A DNA stretch of 37,920 nt from a virus (taxonomy: Duplodnaviria; Heunggongvirae; Uroviricota; Caudoviricetes), in IMG/VR virus record IMGVR_UViG_2737471826_000005; one strand, written 5' to 3'. The translations under genes were made by a program, and so were the position numbers. The notes under the pieces were generated by a model. That model saw nothing but the letters and a program-made list of their open reading frames with translations. It searched no databases and was not told where the DNA came from. Each line of letters starts with the position of its first letter. Positions within the stretch are counted from its first letter, which is position 1. Positions 5,348 through 35,264 of this stretch are shown piece after piece.

Positions 5348-8300
5348 CAGCGGTACTCCTTACGTTGTTTCTGAGCCAGCAGACGCTCCAGCATTTTTTC
5401 CAGCTCATGCAGACTCATATTCAGGGCACCAGTCAGTCCTGCAGGCGCTGTGGTTTCCCTGCCATTGAGGAAAAACTGAGGATTAAAGCTGACCTGGATA
5501 CCACCAGACGTTCCACCGCCGGTTGCAGCTGCACCACGGCCTGAATATCCGGCAGCCAGGATTTCAGGCGAGGGGATACGGGGAACATCCGGTGTCATCT
5601 CATTTGCCAGACGTTGCCCTGGTAAAATCGATGCCCGGGTGGAGAGCGGAATAACGGGCATGGAAGACAAACTATTGATTACGGCTCCGATCGCATTTTT
5701 AGCAGACGACATAAACCCATTGATATCGGGCAACGGCATACTGAAGCGAACACCTGAAGTGTTATCCCGTATTTCTGGCCCCTGAATGCTCACGGGCATT
5801 CTGGGGAGCAGTTCACTGGCCATTCGCTGCCCGGCCAGAGCTGCAAGCGGAGTGGTCCGCTGCAGGCCAATGGCGGCCCCCTGCGCGATATTGTCACCAA
5901 AGCCCATAAACACGCGGCTCGGCGAATGAATGCCCAGCTTTTCGCTGAACCAGCCACTGATGCTGTCACCCATTCCGGTTACACTGGATTTGAGCGACTC
6001 CCATTTGTTTTTGATACCGTTAATCAGACCGTCGACAAGATGGCCACCGAAGTCGGTGAACTTTGCCGGCAGATCAACACCAAGATATTTCAGCGCAGCT
6101 GCAAAGGCTTTATAGAGCAGACCTGCCGGCGACCAGTTAATCAGCAGCTTACCAGTTCCCGCGATACCGCCGTTAAAGGCTTCCTGAATGTCAGCCCAGC
6201 ACTGTTTAAACCAGCTACTGATGCTGTCACCCATTCCGGTTACACTGGATTTGAGCGACCCCCATTTGTTTTTGATACCGTTAATCAGACCGTCGATAAG
6301 ATGGCCACCGAAGTCGGTGAACTTTGCCGGCAGAGCAACGCCGAAATATTTCAGCGCAGCCGCAAAGGCTTTATAGAGCAGGCCTGCCGGCGACCAGTTA
6401 ATCAGCAACTTACCAATTCCCACAATGCCGCCGTTAAAGGCTTCCTGAATGTCAGCCCAGCGCTGTTTAAACCAGCTACTGATGCTGTCACCCATTCCGG
6501 TTACACTGGATTTGAGCGACCCCCATTTGCTTTTGATACCGTTAATCAGACCGTCGATAAGATGGCCACCGAAGTCGGTGAACTTTGCCGGCAGAGCAAC
6601 GCCGAAATATTTCAGCGCAGCCGCAAAGGCTTTATAGAGCAGGCCTGCCGGCGACCAGTTAATCAGCAACTTACCAATTCCCACAATGCCGCCGTTAAAG
6701 GCTTCCTGAATGTCAGCCCAGCGCTGTTTAAACCAACCACTGACAGCCCCCCAGTTGCGGTAGATAAGGTAAGCTGCTGTCGCGACAGCGGTGATAACGA
6801 GACCGATGGGATTCATCATCAGCGCTCGCCCAATCCAGAGAACGGCACGTGCAGCGCTCATAAAACCGCGAACGAGGCTGCCCGCCAGAACTTTGCTGAG
6901 TTTCAGTCCTCCGCTGGTCAGTCGGCTGAATCCAGTGACAAGCCAGCGTAATTTGCCACCTTCTCCGAGTGCGGTAGTCAGTCGATGCCAGTTGGTCCGG
7001 AGTAAAACAGTAGTTTTCCAGACGTTCACAAAGGGGGAAATAAGGAGATTCAGCCCCAGTTTGAGACCAATAGTCGCTATCTTAATCGCAAGGAGCGCAC
7101 TGATGAGCTTAAAAGCCCCACTGACAAATTGCGGGTGAGTCGCTACCCAGTGTTTTGTCCCCTGAATGAGTGGGAGCAGTTCCTGAGTCAGAGAAATAAA
7201 AGATGGAGCTAATTGATCGCCCAGCGTAATTGCCAGATCGCGACTGCTGACCATAAGTGTTTTAGTGGCTTCAAGGGGAGATTTCAGCCGCTGATCATAA
7301 GCACTGGCAAGCAAATCGTTATCCGCAGCCCTGAGAGCACCGGCACGGATCTCTCGATATCTGTCCATGTTGGCCAGCATCGGGCGGATAAATGCCATGA
7401 CCTGCATATCCGCGAACATATCGCCCAGACCAAAGTTTTTCGCCAGAGCCTGAAGTGCCTCATCTCTTGCCGTATCATTCTTTATTTTCATGGCTGATTT
7501 GAAGCCGGCCAGCGCTTCGGGGCTTTTGGCATTGAGGTAACGTTCTATAACACTCAACATCCCTTCAATCGGAGAGATCCCCGCAGCTTTATAACTCGCA
7601 ATAGATCCCTGCAAATCAATACCCAGATCAGCAAACTGTTTCTGAGTATCGCGGGCAAAAATTTTGGTAAGAAAGTTTTTAAAATTATTGGCTGCTTCGT
7701 CGGTGGAACCTGCACCGATTTTTGCTATCTGGAGACTGGCCCCGATTTCAGCAACAGCCTCTTTTCCACTGGCAAGACCCGCCATCATTGGGGCCAGGGA
7801 CTGCATCCACTTGACCTGATCCGGGATTTCAAATGACCCCTGGTCACCGGCATAAGCCATAATATTCTGAACGGCACCAAAATCTCTGGCCGCACCTTTC
7901 AGGGAGTTTTGCCAGACTGCGGCCACTTTTGCCCAGTCCTGAGCAGACGTGCGTGTTGCCGTTGCCGCGCGGGCAATATCCGGCATCAGAAAACCGATAT
8001 CTGACACATTATCAATATTGTCGCTGATGAGTGAACCCACCGCCTCCTGCAGCTCATCCTGATACTGATTGTATTTAAGCGCCCAGCCTTTTATCTGTCC
8101 GGCAAGTGCATCCCGCGTTTTATTGTCATATTTTGCGGTGATCGACATATCAATCATTTTGTCCTGAAAAGACATGGACTGCTGAACGGCAGGGGAAACC
8201 GTATGATAAACAGTCTGTGCCATGCCATACGCTTCAATCCCCTGACCATACAGCGCCATGCGGTTAGCTTTCAGCGCATCACTGGTAGCGGATGCCGCTG

Positions 8301-8559
8301 ACAGACGGCGCTGCTGGCGCTCAATTTGCTCCATGGTGCGGCTTACCCGCAGCAGCTCGCTGTTGAGATGCTGCATCCGGGAAGAACCCAGTTGACCATA
8401 ACGTTCTGTTGCACGGGTTAAAGCGTTCTGACGTTCCTGCAGGCGGCGTGAGGTATCGCTCAGGGAATCAAGCGCACGGCGGGTACCGCTCATTGCAGAA
8501 CGGAATGTGCTGCCAATCATCCCGCCGATAACAACGCCGACTGAAAACTGTCCCGACAT
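5347..8559 (-). CDS. tail tape measure protein
   Basis: 1070-aa ORF, GGAGG RBS, downstream of chaperone pair, internal 87-aa tandem repeats. Confidence 0.9.
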   Translation of the reverse strand: MSGQFSVGVVIGGMIGSTFRSAMSGTRRALDSLSDTSRRLQERQNALTRATERYGQLGSSRMQHLNSELLRVSRTMEQIERQQRRLSAASATSDALKANRMALYGQGIEAYGMAQTVYHTVSPAVQQSMSFQDKMIDMSITAKYDNKTRDALAGQIKGWALKYNQYQDELQEAVGSLISDNIDNVSDIGFLMPDIARAATATRTSAQDWAKVAAVWQNSLKGAARDFGAVQNIMAYAGDQGSFEIPDQVKWMQSLAPMMAGLASGKEAVAEIGASLQIAKIGAGSTDEAANNFKNFLTKIFARDTQKQFADLGIDLQGSIASYKAAGISPIEGMLSVIERYLNAKSPEALAGFKSAMKIKNDTARDEALQALAKNFGLGDMFADMQVMAFIRPMLANMDRYREIRAGALRAADNDLLASAYDQRLKSPLEATKTLMVSSRDLAITLGDQLAPSFISLTQELLPLIQGTKHWVATHPQFVSGAFKLISALLAIKIATIGLKLGLNLLISPFVNVWKTTVLLRTNWHRLTTALGEGGKLRWLVTGFSRLTSGGLKLSKVLAGSLVRGFMSAARAVLWIGRALMMNPIGLVITAVATAAYLIYRNWGAVSGWFKQRWADIQEAFNGGIVGIGKLLINWSPAGLLYKAFAAALKYFGVALPAKFTDFGGHLIDGLINGIKSKWGSLKSSVTGMGDSISSWFKQRWADIQEAFNGGIVGIGKLLINWSPAGLLYKAFAAALKYFGVALPAKFTDFGGHLIDGLINGIKNKWGSLKSSVTGMGDSISSWFKQCWADIQEAFNGGIAGTGKLLINWSPAGLLYKAFAAALKYLGVDLPAKFTDFGGHLVDGLINGIKNKWESLKSSVTGMGDSISGWFSEKLGIHSPSRVFMGFGDNIAQGAAIGLQRTTPLAALAGQRMASELLPRMPVSIQGPEIRDNTSGVRFSMPLPDINGFMSSAKNAIGAVINSLSSMPVIPLSTRASILPGQRLANEMTPDVPRIPSPEILAAGYSGRGAAATGGGTSGGIQVSFNPQFFLNGRETTAPAGLTGALNMSLHELEKMLERLLAQKQRKEYR
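5932..6735. repeat. three tandem copies of a 261-bp unit inside the tape measure gene
   Basis: Unit starts at 5950, 6211, 6472 (period 261); copies 2 and 3 nearly identical, copy 1 slightly diverged; degenerate fourth start at 6733. Confidence 0.9.
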
Positions 8560-22018: not shown

Positions 22019-22369
22019 TTAAAGCCCCATCGCAACAGCCAGACAGACCGCTGCAACAATCAGTGCACGGCGGATTAACGCAGCAGAAAACACCAGGTGA
22101 AGGCCGGTCTGTACCGGGAAACGCCCATCAGCCATCAGCCTGTCGTCATGTTTCAGGTACTGACCGGGACGGGCTTTGGGGAAGAGCGAACGGTCAAGCC
22201 AGTAACCCAGCACTGCTGCCAGCGTGATGAGTGCCAGCTTGTAGATCACAACAGGCAACTGCTGTGGCGAGACCAGAGCGATGGTGCCCAGCAACAGCAC
22301 TGAGGTCAGCAGCCAGCCGCTGAGGCGAGGTTTTTTAACAGGGGGAATGAATTTTTTCAGGTTTTTCAT
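22019..22369 (-). CDS. holin-like membrane protein (three predicted TM segments)
   Basis: First gene of leftward late operon, AAGGAGA RBS before ATG at 22369. Confidence 0.5.
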   Translation of the reverse strand: MKNLKKFIPPVKKPRLSGWLLTSVLLLGTIALVSPQQLPVVIYKLALITLAAVLGYWLDRSLFPKARPGQYLKHDDRLMADGRFPVQTGLHLVFSAALIRRALIVAAVCLAVAMGL

Positions 22370-22499
22370 GTGTGTCTCCTTGTCTGGTGGAGACAGCATC
22401 ACAAATACAGGGCGCGAAGGATTTTAAAGCGCGTTAAGAGAGCCGGGGATACGGGATGTGCAGGATAAACGATGAATTATTCACAGAGGAGAATACGAT

Positions 22500-23243
22500 A
22501 TGACGCAGACACTGAATCCGGTCATCACTGTCACCGTGTCCGGTCCTGTGGGCAGCGGTAAAAGTTACATATTGGCGCGGATAGAGGAAGTGGTGAAACA
22601 GGAATTCGGGGGCAGCGTCATTGTCGATGCTGCAGACGTAGATGATGAGCGGCGTATGAGTGGCGATGATCTGACGACCTGGCAGAAGCCACGGGGTGGC
22701 ACAGTGATCAGGCTGGAGGAATACACGGGACAGGGCCTGTTGTCATACGGCGAGGAGCGTATCTGTCGGACGAATGAGCTGCTGGATGTTATATGCCCCA
22801 CGGGCCGGCAACCCTGGATACTGCCCGATGCACTGCATGCCACCATTGCGGCACTGATGACAGTTTACGATCAGGAGCTGCTCATGAAGGAGCTACGTAA
22901 ACTCACCGGTCAGCCAACAGAATGTTTTTCTGCCCCGAAGTACGGGAAACAGGAACACATCCCGGTGAACACGCTCCCCGTTAACCAGCCTCCCCGGTTC
23001 TTCGACGAATACATTCTGACACCGGAAAATAAAGCTGAGCACGAAGAGATCAAAGCGGCGTTGTTCCGGGAAATCAGGAAGATTGCTGAAATGCAACTGG
23101 GGGGCGGGCTGGACAGAGTGATGGCGAGAGGAGAATGGGAGTCGCTGTTTGAAAGAGTTTCCCCGGAATTACTTCCCCTCGCACTGGCTATCGGGATTAT
23201 GCAGACAGCGGATAAACCTCACTTACGTTCATTAAACACGTAA
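22500..23243 (+). CDS. P-loop NTPase/kinase-like protein, unknown function
   Basis: Walker A GPVGSGKS at residues 15-22; GAGGAG RBS; no family assigned. Confidence 0.6.
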   Translation: MTQTLNPVITVTVSGPVGSGKSYILARIEEVVKQEFGGSVIVDAADVDDERRMSGDDLTTWQKPRGGTVIRLEEYTGQGLLSYGEERICRTNELLDVICPTGRQPWILPDALHATIAALMTVYDQELLMKELRKLTGQPTECFSAPKYGKQEHIPVNTLPVNQPPRFFDEYILTPENKAEHEEIKAALFREIRKIAEMQLGGGLDRVMARGEWESLFERVSPELLPLALAIGIMQTADKPHLRSLNT

Positions 23244-23623
23244 CGCATAATCCGGGATACGCATTCAGCGATGACTGCATTTTCACCGGTTTTTACTGCA
23301 TCCAGAAGTGACTCTTTAAATGGTGCGGGCCGGGGCTGCAGAAGGGTCGGCGTGGCATTGAGCAGACGGAGCGTTTTTTCCGTGAGGACGACATCAGCCG
23401 CTCCCACAGCCAGCAACTGAGAGTAACGAATATAGCTGTTATCCCGAAGCCATATCAGCGTATCAATAAAATACCGGCACTTTTTCTGGTCGTGATCAAC
23501 CTGGTCCGGGATATCGAAAAAACCAGAATAAATCAAAACCTGAGGTGCCGGATGCGTGTTCAGTAATCGGCAGAATATTTTGCCGGTGAGTGCATAAAAA
23601 TCATCATTTAAGGAGTGCATCAT
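23219..23623 (-). CDS. hypothetical protein, convergent with P-loop gene
   Basis: 134-aa ORF filling an otherwise 378-bp gap; weak G-rich RBS. Confidence 0.4.
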   Translation of the reverse strand: MMHSLNDDFYALTGKIFCRLLNTHPAPQVLIYSGFFDIPDQVDHDQKKCRYFIDTLIWLRDNSYIRYSQLLAVGAADVVLTEKTLRLLNATPTLLQPRPAPFKESLLDAVKTGENAVIAECVSRIMRYVFNERK

Positions 23624-23837
23624 GAATCCCCGATTAACGTTAACAGAACATCAGCGCCGTGCTGAAGCAGTGAACAATGTTCTGGAAGATATTATCCGGT
23701 TACATCGCGGAGAACTGAGTGTCTGTCGTGCCGCTTTTCATTTTCAGGGAATACAAAAGCAGTTTGATACTTCTGTTTTTGCAGAAGGTATTACTTATGC
23801 CCTGGACCGGATAAGGTCAGAAAATCGCCCCGGATAA
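23622..23837 (+). CDS. hypothetical small protein
   Basis: 71 aa, strong AAGGAG RBS 6 nt upstream of ATG. Confidence 0.5.
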   Translation: MNPRLTLTEHQRRAEAVNNVLEDIIRLHRGELSVCRAAFHFQGIQKQFDTSVFAEGITYALDRIRSENRPG

Positions 23838-24028
23838 TCCCTAAACCACATTAACAGAAATCCCACTATCCCTGCCGCATCATGAAAGAACGACCAGCCC
23901 GGTGCTTCGGACCCACCGGGCTGGCCATCGTCCCACAGAAGTGGCTGTGAGCCGACCGAGGTTCAGTCAGTCTCGCGAGACCAGACTAGCCTGCCATATT
24001 TTTAATAATTGTAAAAGGCTTACAGATT

Positions 24029-24793
24029 ATGAAAATGAAGACATTACCCATCGTTCCATGGATTGGTGGCAAACGTCGCCTGGCAAAACACATCCTGCCG
24101 CTGTTTCCGGCGCATGAATGTTATGTGGAGCCGTTTTGTGGGGCAGCAGCGCTCTATTTTCTTAAGACACCCGGCAAGATCGAAGTCATCAATGATATCA
24201 ACGGTGAACTGGTGAATCTGTACCGGGTGGTAAAGCATCACCTGGAAGAATTTGTCCGCCAGTTCAAATGGGCGCTGGTCAGCCGTCAGATCTACAAATG
24301 GCTGCAGATCACCCCGGAAGAAACACTGACGGATATCCAGCGTGCGGCACGGTTCTACTACCTTCAGAAGCAGGCGTTTGGCGGCAAGGTGGCAGAGCAC
24401 AGCTTCGGTACCTCCACCACATCCCCGCCACGCTTCAACCTGCTGCGTATTGAAGAAGAACTGTCAGCAGCACACCTGCGGCTTTCCAGAACAGTCATAG
24501 AACACATGGACTGGCAACAGTGCATTGAGCGTTATGATCGTCCGCACACACTGTTCTACTGCGACCCACCGTACCTGGGTACGGAAGGCTATGGTGTGGA
24601 TTTTCCTGAAGGGAACTACTCGCGGCTGGCAGAGCTGGCCCGGTGCATCAGAGGAAAAATGATAATTTCGGTGAACGATATCCCACAGATGCGCGAGGTG
24701 TTCACTGGACTGAACATACAGACAGTGAACATCAACTACAGTCTGGCGGGGAAATCTACGCCGCGCCGTGAACTGGTAATCTGCAACTTCTGA
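24029..24793 (+). CDS. DNA N6-adenine methyltransferase, Dam (D12 class)-like
   Basis: N-terminal WIGGKRRL and catalytic DPPY motifs. Confidence 0.85.
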   Translation: MKMKTLPIVPWIGGKRRLAKHILPLFPAHECYVEPFCGAAALYFLKTPGKIEVINDINGELVNLYRVVKHHLEEFVRQFKWALVSRQIYKWLQITPEETLTDIQRAARFYYLQKQAFGGKVAEHSFGTSTTSPPRFNLLRIEEELSAAHLRLSRTVIEHMDWQQCIERYDRPHTLFYCDPPYLGTEGYGVDFPEGNYSRLAELARCIRGKMIISVNDIPQMREVFTGLNIQTVNINYSLAGKSTPRRELVICNF

Positions 24794-24909: not shown

Positions 24910-25248
24910 TCAGCCTGCGAGTTTGCTTGGTTTGGGTTGAATGAAGACTTTGCCGACCTCAAGAATTGCCCTCCGTTGTTCGGGGCTCATTTCGTCGAAT
25001 GCATCCATTAACTCTTTCTTTTCTTGTGACACATAAGGTGCAACAACAGGCTGACTCCGCACCCCAGTAACTACATACAAAATATCTACACCGATTTCTG
25101 ATAGTGCAGATAACTGCACTGCAGTAGGAGAAGTGCGATCTTTTTCCCAATCAATGAAAGTTCTCTTTGCCACACCTATAGCATCAGCCAACCCTTGCTG
25201 TGTAAGAGATAGACGCTCTCTTTCTTCTTTAATACGTAACCCGATCAT
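24910..25248 (-). CDS. prophage repressor, HTH XRE/cI-like
   Basis: MIGLRIKEERERLSLTQQGLADAIGVAKRTFIDWE HTH; divergent from early operon; track ORF is an N-terminal extension. Confidence 0.7.
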   Translation of the reverse strand: MIGLRIKEERERLSLTQQGLADAIGVAKRTFIDWEKDRTSPTAVQLSALSEIGVDILYVVTGVRSQPVVAPYVSQEKKELMDAFDEMSPEQRRAILEVGKVFIQPKPSKLAG

Positions 25249-34496: not shown

Positions 34497-35264
34497 ATGT
34501 CTGATCATCTGGGCTTTCGTTCGTCACTGCTGCAAGCGAGCTTTAACTACGAAAGGATGCAGGCGGGCGGTTTTACCTGGGCGATGTTGCCGATCCTGAA
34601 AAAGATTTATAAGGACGACAAACCGGGCCTAAGCGCGGCGATGAAAGATAACCTCGAATTTATTAATACCCACCCGAATCTGGTCGGATTCCTGATGGGG
34701 TTATTAATTTCGATGGAAGAAAAAGGAGAAAACCGCGACACCATTAAAGGCCTCAAAGTGGCACTGTTTGGCCCAATCGCCGGGATTGGCGATGCGATTT
34801 TCTGGTTTACCTTATTGCCGATTATGGCGGGAATTTGCTCATCATTTGCCAGCCAGGGAAACTTGCTGGGGCCGATTCTATTTTTCGCCGTTTACCTGCT
34901 TATCTTCTTCCTGCGCGTCGGCTGGACCCACGTCGGTTATTCAGTCGGCGTGAAGGCGATCGATAAAGTGCGAGAGAACTCGCAGATGATTGCTCGTTCG
35001 GCAACCATCCTCGGGATCACGGTAATCGGCGGGCTGATCGCTTCGTATGTGCATATTAACGTGGTGACATCGTTTGCCATCGACAGTACCCACAGCGTCG
35101 CGCTGCAGCAGGATTTCTTCGATAAAGTCTTCCCGAATATTTTACCGATGGCCTACACCCTGCTGATGTATTACTTCCTGCGGGTGAAAAAAGCGCATCC
35201 GGTGCTGTTAATCGGCGTGACGTTTGTTCTTTCTATTGTTTGTTCTGCATTCGGCATTTTGTAA
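34497..35264 (+). CDS. agaD: PTS N-acetylgalactosamine-specific IID component, 5'-truncated/altered by prophage insertion
   Basis: Body of protein matches AgaD as I recall it, but N-terminus MSDHLGFRSS replaces native MGSEISKKDITRLGFRSS. Confidence 0.8.
   Translation: MSDHLGFRSSLLQASFNYERMQAGGFTWAMLPILKKIYKDDKPGLSAAMKDNLEFINTHPNLVGFLMGLLISMEEKGENRDTIKGLKVALFGPIAGIGDAIFWFTLLPIMAGICSSFASQGNLLGPILFFAVYLLIFFLRVGWTHVGYSVGVKAIDKVRENSQMIARSATILGITVIGGLIASYVHINVVTSFAIDSTHSVALQQDFFDKVFPNILPMAYTLLMYYFLRVKKAHPVLLIGVTFVLSIVCSAFGIL

What the first reader, a model, noticed from the sequence alone, without database searches (positions are those of the whole stretch)
22403..23837. Uncharacterised three-gene accessory cluster (P-loop protein plus two small ORFs) between the lysis operon and dam/repressor
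This is the divergence point of the late and early operons, and its genes are oriented independently of both. It encodes a 247-aa protein with an N-terminal Walker A (GPVGSGKS) but no recognisable family, a convergent 134-aa ORF overlapping its 3' end by 25 nt, and a 71-aa ORF with a strong RBS whose start overlaps the 134-aa ORF start back-to-back. Neither compact pairing nor any member matches a system I recognise. It could be a kinase-based anti-phage/exclusion module, a toxin-antitoxin-like pair, or a DNA-modification accessory working with the adjacent Dam.
Basis: inference. Interest (0 to 1): 0.65.

Follow-up and report, generated by a model that had tools for sequence, protein, structure and literature searches.

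The report
Two unrelated prophage accessory modules, not one
The three genes are real but form two independent, uncharacterised accessory units of a Mu-like E. coli prophage, one of which is an unusual head-to-head gene pair (a DNA-binding-type protein and a tiny partner with touching start codons) that also occurs in P2-like phages.

Summary
All three ORFs, the Walker A motif and both overlaps are at the stated coordinates. The window is a BcepMu-like transposable prophage (EC958 "Phi2" type) inserted in ssuB. The three genes lie in its variable slot between holin and repressor.

They are not one system. orfA belongs to a prophage family that shares only a ~75-aa N-terminal domain with a Walker-A-like GxxxxGK[S/N]. 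Its C-termini are mosaic. Relatives occupy the same slot without orfB/orfC. Fold searches found no P-loop NTPase, so "kinase" is unsupported.

orfB/orfC is a separate cassette. orfB is predicted to be a winged-helix protein, and orfC is a 63-86-aa partner encoded divergently. Their start codons share CATG in all 63 loci examined. These include P2-like prophages, where the cassette lies in the gpA-gpQ hotspot. Both genes are under purifying selection there (dN/dS 0.08 and 0.15).

Published TraDIS data for EC958 show that all three genes tolerate insertions, whereas the repressor does not. This argues against a classical toxin-antitoxin pair.

The function is unknown. My best inference is a self-regulating B/C cassette with antisense-coupled expression and an accessory, possibly phage-conflict, role. 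Interest is moderate.

The parts
22403..22499 (.). Intergenic control region between the holin gene (leftward late/lysis operon) and orfA (rightward). GAGGAG lies 8 nt upstream of the orfA ATG.
   Evidence: Sequence. Only weak consensus promoter matches. No transcription start site was determined.
22500..23243 (+). orfA, 247 aa. Residues 1-75 (22500-22724) form a small conserved domain with the Walker-A-like GPVGSGKS. Residues 76-247 are a mosaic, poorly predicted helical region.
   Evidence: ORF. Matches phrog_3787. Exhaustive HMMER found 55 hits that share only residues 1-75 (alignment A3; G20 and K21 invariant). AF2 pLDDT is 84-93 for residues 11-70 and below 50 for most of the rest. No fold match. 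Homologues occupy the same slot in other BcepMu-like prophages.
23219..23623 (-). orfB, 134 aa (133 aa if the second ATG at 23620 is used). Predicted winged-helix protein with a C-terminal helical extension. Its 3' end overlaps the orfA 3' end by 25 nt.
23622..23837 (+). orfC, 71 aa. Small partner gene divergent from orfB.
   Evidence: ORF. Matches phrog_4490. A divergent 63-86-aa ORF starts at the same CATG in 63 of 63 loci. dN/dS is 0.15 for the P2-type partner. The Serratia-type version (L018) is 29% identical.
23610..23631 (.). Reciprocal translation-start region. The orfC Shine-Dalgarno AAGGAG (23610-23615, + strand) lies in orfB codons 3-5. CATG (23621-23624) holds both start codons. The orfB Shine-Dalgarno GGGGA (complement of 23627-23631) lies in orfC codons 2-4.
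   Evidence: Sequence. In the P2 clade, the corresponding codons (B Leu5 and C Ser4) show zero synonymous variation among 38 unique sequences.
23894..23924 (.). Perfect 11-bp stem with a 9-nt loop between orfC and dam. It may be a terminator or a module boundary.
   Evidence: Repeat I3. RNA fold -29.5 kcal/mol, z -3.2. Flagged as a terminator-like site on the minus strand.

Best explanation
The segment is the variable accessory slot of a BcepMu-like transposable prophage. It holds two evolutionarily independent units.

Unit 1 is orfA. It belongs to a prophage-restricted family that occupies the first position rightward of the holin gene. The family is defined by a ~75-aa N-terminal domain with a Walker-A-like loop (possibly nucleotide- or phosphate-binding), joined to shuffled C-terminal modules.

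Unit 2 is the orfB/orfC cassette. It encodes a winged-helix (nucleic-acid-binding type) protein and a small partner, arranged head to head. Each gene's ribosome-binding site lies inside the first five codons of the other. Each mRNA must therefore start inside or beyond the partner gene, so the two mRNAs are antisense to each other over both start regions.

I infer that B binds DNA and autoregulates the cassette. I also infer that the forced antisense overlap makes B and C expression mutually antagonistic, as in a compact switch. The cassette would serve a dispensable accessory role, most plausibly in phage-phage or phage-host conflict, because it sits in the P2 gpA-gpQ hotspot.

Shown: the composite nature, the winged-helix fold prediction, the conserved architecture, purifying selection, and dispensability in the lysogen. 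Inferred: DNA binding, antisense coupling, and the biological role.
For: Composite nature:
- orfA homologues P0037 and P0045 lie between holin and dam with no B/C.
- B/C lies in P2-like phages between gpA/DinI and the portal gene, next to varying cargo such as Fic or a nucleotidyltransferase-like gene.
- Slot content varies among E. coli prophages and in KP12 and BcepMu.

Architecture:
- CATG plus a divergent 63-86-aa ORF is present in 63 of 63 loci, although orfB is only ~30% identical between clades.
- L076 has the partner ORF even though it is unannotated there.

Both genes are real:
- dN/dS is 0.08 (B) and 0.15 (C) at dS of about 1.

Embedded signals:
- There is zero synonymous variation at B Leu5 and C Ser4.
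- Synonymous variability is lower in the first 62 codons of B than in the rest (0.82 vs 1.20 bits, p = 0.006).
- A weak C-sense promoter-like motif sits at a fixed position inside B in 30 of 41 sequences.

Dispensability: EC958 TraDIS (PMC3789825, supplementary file 2).

Hotspot location: PMC9122126 defines the gpA-gpQ region as the P2 defence hotspot.
Against: - No transcription start sites are known, and the promoter matches are weak and at chance frequency.
- No operator-like repeat is conserved.
- A winged-helix fold also occurs in protein-binding and RNA-binding domains, so DNA binding is not established.
- Mu-type and P2-type orfC show no detectable homology. The partner may therefore have been replaced, or the shared architecture could be partly coincidental, for example a compact arrangement inherited with B.
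- Nothing matches a known defence or anti-defence family. The alternative cargo of the BcepMu slot is also mostly unknown, so a conflict role is not shown.
- In the Mu-type the second ATG of orfB may be the real start, in which case there is no literal overlap.
Confidence: 0.5

Rival explanations
1. One three-gene anti-phage or exclusion system, in which the P-loop protein orfA is the NTPase/kinase sensor or effector and orfB/orfC are its partners.
For: The three genes are contiguous and tightly packed. They co-occur in about 483 of 5426 E. coli genomes. The slot is variable, like a defence hotspot.
Against: - orfA relatives occur without B/C (L071), and B/C occurs without orfA in P2-like phages.
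- Natural variants keep A and C but delete B (L059 and L060), or carry an A with a deletion inside the N-terminal domain (L072).
- No PADLOC hit reaches significance; the best is mad8 at E 0.0046.
- There is no NTPase fold match.
Confidence: 0.08
2. orfB/orfC is a toxin-antitoxin or addiction pair, with B toxic and C its antidote.
For: It is a compact two-gene unit of the right sizes. In two independent lineages B is deleted while C is kept (L059/L060; L077). B is interrupted in L016. I saw no case of C lost with B kept.
Against: - In EC958 TraDIS, orfC (EC958_1100) carries 27 insertion sites in 200 bp and orfB 39 sites, and both are scored non-essential. The prophage repressor has 1 site and is scored essential.
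- The genes are divergent rather than co-transcribed.
- B has a winged-helix fold, not a known toxin fold.
- Nothing matches in PADLOC, Pfam or NCBIfam.
Confidence: 0.1
3. orfB/orfC is a phage regulatory module with no conflict function of its own. It could be, for example, a repressor/anti-repressor-like pair controlling neighbouring moron genes, dam, or a step of phage development.
For: - B has a winged-helix fold.
- The layout resembles divergent regulator pairs with overlapping 5' transcripts, as in the P2 C/Cox and 186 CI/Apl switches (my own knowledge).
- The cassette stays at a fixed position near cos in P2-like phages while the cargo beside it changes.
Against: - It is present in only about 94 E. 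coli genomes, against about 2860 with a P2-type portal gene, so it is not a core regulator.
- The neighbouring cargo is heterogeneous and is sometimes absent, as in L006.
- It is dispensable in the EC958 lysogen.
Confidence: 0.22
4. orfA is an accessory factor of the adjacent Dam methyltransferase, and the two form a DNA-modification module.
For: orfA-family genes are followed directly by dam on the same strand in several BcepMu-like prophages.
Against: - orfA occurs without dam in L071.
- dam occurs without orfA in L073 and KP12.
- In this window, B/C and a strong hairpin separate orfA from dam.
- The orfA C-termini are mosaic, which is not expected for a dedicated partner.
Confidence: 0.07

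Closest known systems
Winged-helix transcription regulators (MarR/PadR/IclR-type) and Z-alpha/Z-beta nucleic-acid-binding domains
   Different: Sequence identity is 7-19% and no Pfam or NCBIfam family is matched. orfB has a distinctive conserved C-terminal helix pair (A109, K111, G113, V117-A119). DNA binding is untested.
Face-to-face promoter switches of P2-family phages (P2 C/Cox, 186 CI/Apl)
   Same: A divergent pair of small regulators whose transcripts must overlap at their 5' ends, giving transcriptional or antisense interference. The comparison rests on my own knowledge of these switches and on the anatomy.
   Different: There is no sequence homology. Here the coding sequences themselves abut or overlap and each ribosome-binding site lies inside the partner's coding region, so any promoters must be intragenic. 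The cassette is an accessory element in a hotspot, not the phage's immunity region, which here is the separate HTH repressor at 24910-25248.
P2 gpA-gpQ hotspot cargo (old, tin, Rst systems; Rousset et al. 2022, PMC9122126)
   Same: The P2-type B/C cassette lies in that hotspot. The BcepMu slot is similarly variable.
   Different: B/C and orfA match no PADLOC model. Signature peptides of B, C and A are absent from the protein sequences in that paper's supplementary tables. No defence phenotype is known.
P-loop NTPases / 'ABC transporter ATPase' (the name some sources give to truncated orfA variants)
   Same: A GxxxxGK[ST] loop following a hydrophobic strand-like segment, with G20 and K21 invariant across the family.

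Membership tests
P-loop NTPase (kinase/ATPase) | Walker A motif GxxxxGK[ST] | tested here: met
   GPVGSGKS at residues 15-22. G20 and K21 are invariant and S22 is at least 90% conserved in 33 family members, but some members have GAESSGKN.
P-loop NTPase (kinase/ATPase) | Complete alpha/beta NTPase core with Walker B, recognisable by profile or fold | tested here: not met
ABC transporter ATPase (source name for the 141-158-aa variants) | Match to the ABC_tran domain, including the signature motif | tested here: not met
   ABC_tran E 0.11, 13.6 bits against a cut-off of 25, covering residues 4-52 only.
Type II toxin-antitoxin module | Loss of the antitoxin is deleterious while the toxin is intact | tested here: not met
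   Published EC958 TraDIS: EC958_1099 (orfB) 39 sites and EC958_1100 (orfC) 27 sites, both non-essential. The repressor EC958_1102 has 1 site and is essential.
Type II toxin-antitoxin module | Co-transcribed bicistronic operon with a recognisable toxin or antitoxin domain | tested here: not met
   The genes are divergent. There are no Pfam, NCBIfam or PADLOC domains.
Known anti-phage defence systems (PADLOC-DB v2) | Significant match of any component to a defence-protein model | tested here: not met
   orfA: mad8 E 0.0046 and SngB E 0.028, both confined to the P-loop region. orfB and orfC: no hits.
Winged-helix DNA-binding regulators | Winged-helix fold | tested here: met
Winged-helix DNA-binding regulators | Sequence-specific DNA binding and an operator | not testable with these tools
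   No conserved palindrome was found. EMSA or ChIP is required.
DUF2513 (the UniRef name of the Serratia homologue P0031) | Match to the Pfam DUF2513 model | tested here: not met
   hmmscan of orfB, the Midge homologue and P0031 at E up to 1-5 returns no DUF2513 hit.
Face-to-face promoter switch (P2 C/Cox-like) | Convergent promoters giving 5'-overlapping transcripts | not testable with these tools
   This is implied by the reciprocal embedding of the ribosome-binding sites, but no start sites are known and the promoter matches are weak.

The most novel reading that the evidence does not exclude
orfB/orfC may represent an undescribed class of mobile two-gene cassette. A winged-helix protein and an exchangeable small partner would be locked head to head, so that their mRNAs mutually occlude each other's ribosome-binding sites. 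This would give a minimal bistable or trigger-type switch that moves between unrelated temperate phage families (Mu-like and P2-like) and acts in phage defence or counter-defence. Separately, the 75-aa orfA N-terminal domain could be a naturally occurring minimal P-loop module.
Probability: 0.2. Interest if true: 0.7.

Novelty: new variant of a known kind. Interest (0 to 1): 0.42.

Why it matters
This prophage (Phi2 of EC958) is carried by a large share of pandemic ST131 E. coli, and its accessory genes are candidates for traits that affect phage susceptibility. The B/C cassette is a conserved example of divergent genes with touching start codons, which to my knowledge is the rarest class of gene overlap in bacteria. 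It is maintained at about 30% protein identity across two unrelated phage families. If the antisense coupling is real, it would be a very compact natural switch and a new occupant of prophage hotspots. The practical result is that experiments should test orfA and orfB/orfC separately, not as one system, and should not assume that orfA is a kinase.

Tried and rejected
- Pfam, NCBIfam, PADLOC and PDB sequence searches of all three proteins gave only sub-threshold Walker-A-level hits for orfA and nothing for B or C.
- Profile-profile comparison of Mu-type and P2-type orfC gave probability 0.1%, so homology is not shown.
- A candidate long-range stem inside the P2-type orfC region appeared as an inverted repeat at the same position with different sequence in three loci. 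I rejected it. RNAalifold gives -2.3 kcal/mol with no such helix. Pair counts equal the shuffled controls, 66.7% against 67.0%.
- An Rfam scan of 22300-24100 returned only chance-level hits.
- Consensus promoter scans returned matches at chance frequency. I do not rely on them.
- Searches for the protein accessions and for 'overlapping start codons' in the literature found no papers.
- A search of the Rousset 2022 supplements for B, C and A peptides found none.
- PADLOC and Pfam scans of alternative cargo in the BcepMu slot returned mostly unknowns: one weak KwaA-like hit, one NA37 nucleoid protein and one DUF2441. The slot cannot be called a proven defence hotspot.
- The genome-contig scan for orfB relatives returned only two loci.

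Full report
**Observation**

orfA is at 22500-23243 (+, 247 aa, GPVGSGKS at residues 15-22). orfB is at 23219-23623 (-, 134 aa). orfC is at 23622-23837 (+, 71 aa).

The A/B 3' overlap is 25 nt. The B and C start codons share the palindrome CATG at 23621-23624. AAGGAG precedes the orfC ATG by 6 nt.

There is one refinement. orfB begins with two ATGs, at 23623 and 23620. Its GGGGA Shine-Dalgarno is 3 nt from the first and 6 nt from the second, so the real start in this prophage may be the second. In that case the two starts are 1 nt apart rather than overlapping. Either way, each ribosome-binding site lies inside the first five codons of the other gene.

**Context**

- The window is 100% identical over this segment to many E. 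coli chromosomes of the ST131 type, and 95.7% identical to Escherichia phage PhiKM, which is classified in Bcepmuvirus.
- RefSeq shows a Mu-like transposable prophage. Its tail, head and lysis genes lie on one strand. Its repressor, Ner-like gene, transposase, ExeA-like gene, Gam and Mor lie on the other. It is inserted in ssuB.
- In EC958 this prophage is called Phi2. Its dam gene is M.EcoMIV (EC958_1101), which is poorly transcribed in the lysogen (PMC4659465).
- All three ORFs are annotated as hypothetical proteins. Each falls in a PHROG of unknown function: phrog_3787, phrog_2266 and phrog_4490.

**orfA**

- The word-indexed search of 5.8 billion proteins found only close E. coli relatives and truncated variants. 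Some of the truncated variants are named 'ABC transporter ATPase'.
- The exhaustive HMMER search found 55 representatives. They share only residues 1-75 at 35-60% identity. Their C-terminal regions, which bring total lengths to 92-364 aa, are unrelated or mosaic.
- In the alignment, G20 and K21 are invariant. V13, G15, G18, S22, I28, E50, W61 and P64 are nearly invariant. Some members have GK-N.
- Two homologues whose contigs I fetched lie in the same position in other BcepMu-like prophages: divergent from the holin gene and followed directly by dam, with no orfB or orfC.
- Pfam and NCBIfam hits are restricted to the Walker A region and are below cut-off.

orfA is therefore a syntenic but rapidly remodelled gene of this phage group, with a small Walker-A-like domain. 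Calling it a kinase or ATPase is not justified. Some lineages carry versions that are truncated (158 aa, L071) or have a deletion inside the N-terminal domain (182 aa, L072).

**orfB/orfC**

- orfB has ~30%-identical homologues (143-145 aa) in P2-like phages: Midge, FSL SP-004 and Klebsiella ST147-VIM1phi7.1. There each homologue is paired with a divergent 63-64-aa ORF whose start overlaps its own by 2 nt.
- I collected 62 loci plus the window. In all 63, the orfB ATG is preceded by C, giving CATG, and a 63-86-aa ORF runs divergently from it. This includes a genome in which the small ORF is not annotated (L076).
- In the P2 clade the pair lies in the gpA-gpQ region, usually about 0.5 kb from the portal gene. 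Variable cargo of 0-3.5 kb lies on either side. PMC9122126 describes that region as a defence hotspot.
- The cassette is rare there. It occurs in about 94 of 5426 E. coli genomes, against about 2860 with a P2-type portal gene.
- Both genes are under purifying selection in the P2 clade. dN/dS is 0.08 for B and 0.15 for C, at dS of about 1. orfC is therefore a real gene.
- The Mu-type and P2-type small partners fall in different PHROGs and show no profile-profile similarity. The Serratia-type partner (L018) is 29% identical to the window's orfC.
- The orfB family has 85 members. All are from Enterobacterales, all are unnamed and none has a Pfam domain. A solo, more distant paralogue occurs between dam and orfC in L011.

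**Evidence for embedded signals**

- At amino-acid-conserved four-fold or six-fold degenerate codons, B Leu5 and C Ser4 show zero synonymous variation among 38 unique P2-type sequences. These are the codons that carry the partner's Shine-Dalgarno.
- The first 62 codons of orfB have lower synonymous variability than the rest (0.82 vs 1.20 bits, Mann-Whitney p = 0.006).
- A weak C-sense promoter-like motif sits at a fixed place inside orfB in 30 of 41 sequences. I treat this only as a lead.
- Because both genes have Shine-Dalgarno sequences inside the partner's coding region, their mRNAs must overlap in antisense across both start regions. This step follows from the anatomy. Its consequence, mutual interference, is inference.

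**Experimental data from the literature**

In the EC958 TraDIS library (PMC3789825, supplementary file 2), the insertion counts were:

| Locus tag | Gene | Insertion sites | Scored |
|---|---|---|---|
| EC958_1098 | part of orfA | 30 | non-essential |
| EC958_1099 | orfB | 39 | non-essential |
| EC958_1100 | orfC | 27 | non-essential |
| EC958_1101 | dam | 78 | non-essential |
| EC958_1102 | prophage repressor | 1 | essential |

Serum-selection log fold changes for 1098-1101 are about 0. This argues against a classical toxin-antitoxin pair with an essential antidote, at least in LB.

Natural variants delete orfB while keeping orfC in two independent clades (L059/L060; L077). I saw no converse case. 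The sample is small and I give this little weight.

**Slot variability**

Among E. coli BcepMu-like prophages, the holin-to-repressor interval takes several forms:
- A-B-C-dam, in about 483 genomes.
- A(182 aa)-B-C-dam.
- A(158 aa) plus two unrelated genes, with no B, C or dam.
- dam plus a 401-aa protein and an NA37 nucleoid-associated protein, with no A, B or C.

KP12 and BcepMu itself carry other genes in the slot. Most of this alternative cargo is also unknown.

**Conclusion**

The interpretation as a single three-gene system is not. The segment is a mosaic accessory slot with two independent units. The more interesting unit is the orfB/orfC cassette, a conserved head-to-head pair of a winged-helix protein and a small partner, shared between Mu-like and P2-like temperate phages.

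My preferred mechanism is a self-regulating cassette with antisense-coupled expression and an accessory role in phage conflict. It rests on anatomy, fold prediction and location, and it needs transcript mapping and phenotypic tests.

I rate the finding as a new variant of a known kind (divergent small-regulator pairs and prophage hotspot cargo), with moderate interest.

Noticed in passing
window 34728-35240 (from L001 32429-32941): The prophage's right end abuts a truncated ssuB (ATP-binding cassette pseudogene), followed by ssuC, ssuD and ssuA. The Mu-like prophage is therefore inserted in, and disrupts, the aliphatic sulfonate transporter gene ssuB.
   Followed up: no
window ~5794-8559 (from L001 3495-6260): RefSeq flags the tail tape measure gene of the identical prophage in strain SK1144 as an incomplete pseudogene missing its C-terminus. 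The prophage may therefore be defective.
   Followed up: no
window 24910-25248 and related loci L002, L010, L013-L017: Prophages that are otherwise 95-100% identical carry repressor alleles only 33-34% identical to the one in the window. The adjacent Ner-like gene is either 100% or 73% identical. These are heteroimmune variants created by swapping of the immunity region.
   Followed up: partly
L011 5154-5537: One related prophage has a second, distant orfB-like paralogue (28% identity) inserted between dam and orfC. It has no start-overlapping small partner, and the insertion is flanked by a duplicated copy of the orfC-dam intergenic sequence.
   Followed up: partly
window 23894-23924: A perfect 11-bp GC-rich hairpin lies between orfC and dam (-29.5 kcal/mol, z -3.2). 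It has no T-tract on the plus strand and a weak one on the minus strand. It may be a bidirectional terminator or a recombination boundary of the B/C insertion.
   Followed up: partly
P2-type loci, orfB codons 46-66 (e.g. L006 6115-6180): This stretch has almost no synonymous variation: entropy is 0-0.3 bits at Leu46, Ser48, Ser59, Val60, Val61 and Thr64. That suggests an embedded element inside orfB, such as a promoter, an operator or an RNA signal. No palindrome or conserved helix was found.
   Followed up: partly
L073 4405-6620: In another E. coli BcepMu-like prophage the slot carries a 401-aa protein with a weak KwaA-like match (E 8e-5) next to an NA37 nucleoid-associated protein. This is an unrecognised gene pair that might be a defence candidate.
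   Followed up: no
window 22019-22402: The holin ORF can be extended to a GTG at 22402 (127 aa), whereas RefSeq starts it at 22369 (116 aa). The finding's left boundary of 22403 assumes the longer form.
   Followed up: no
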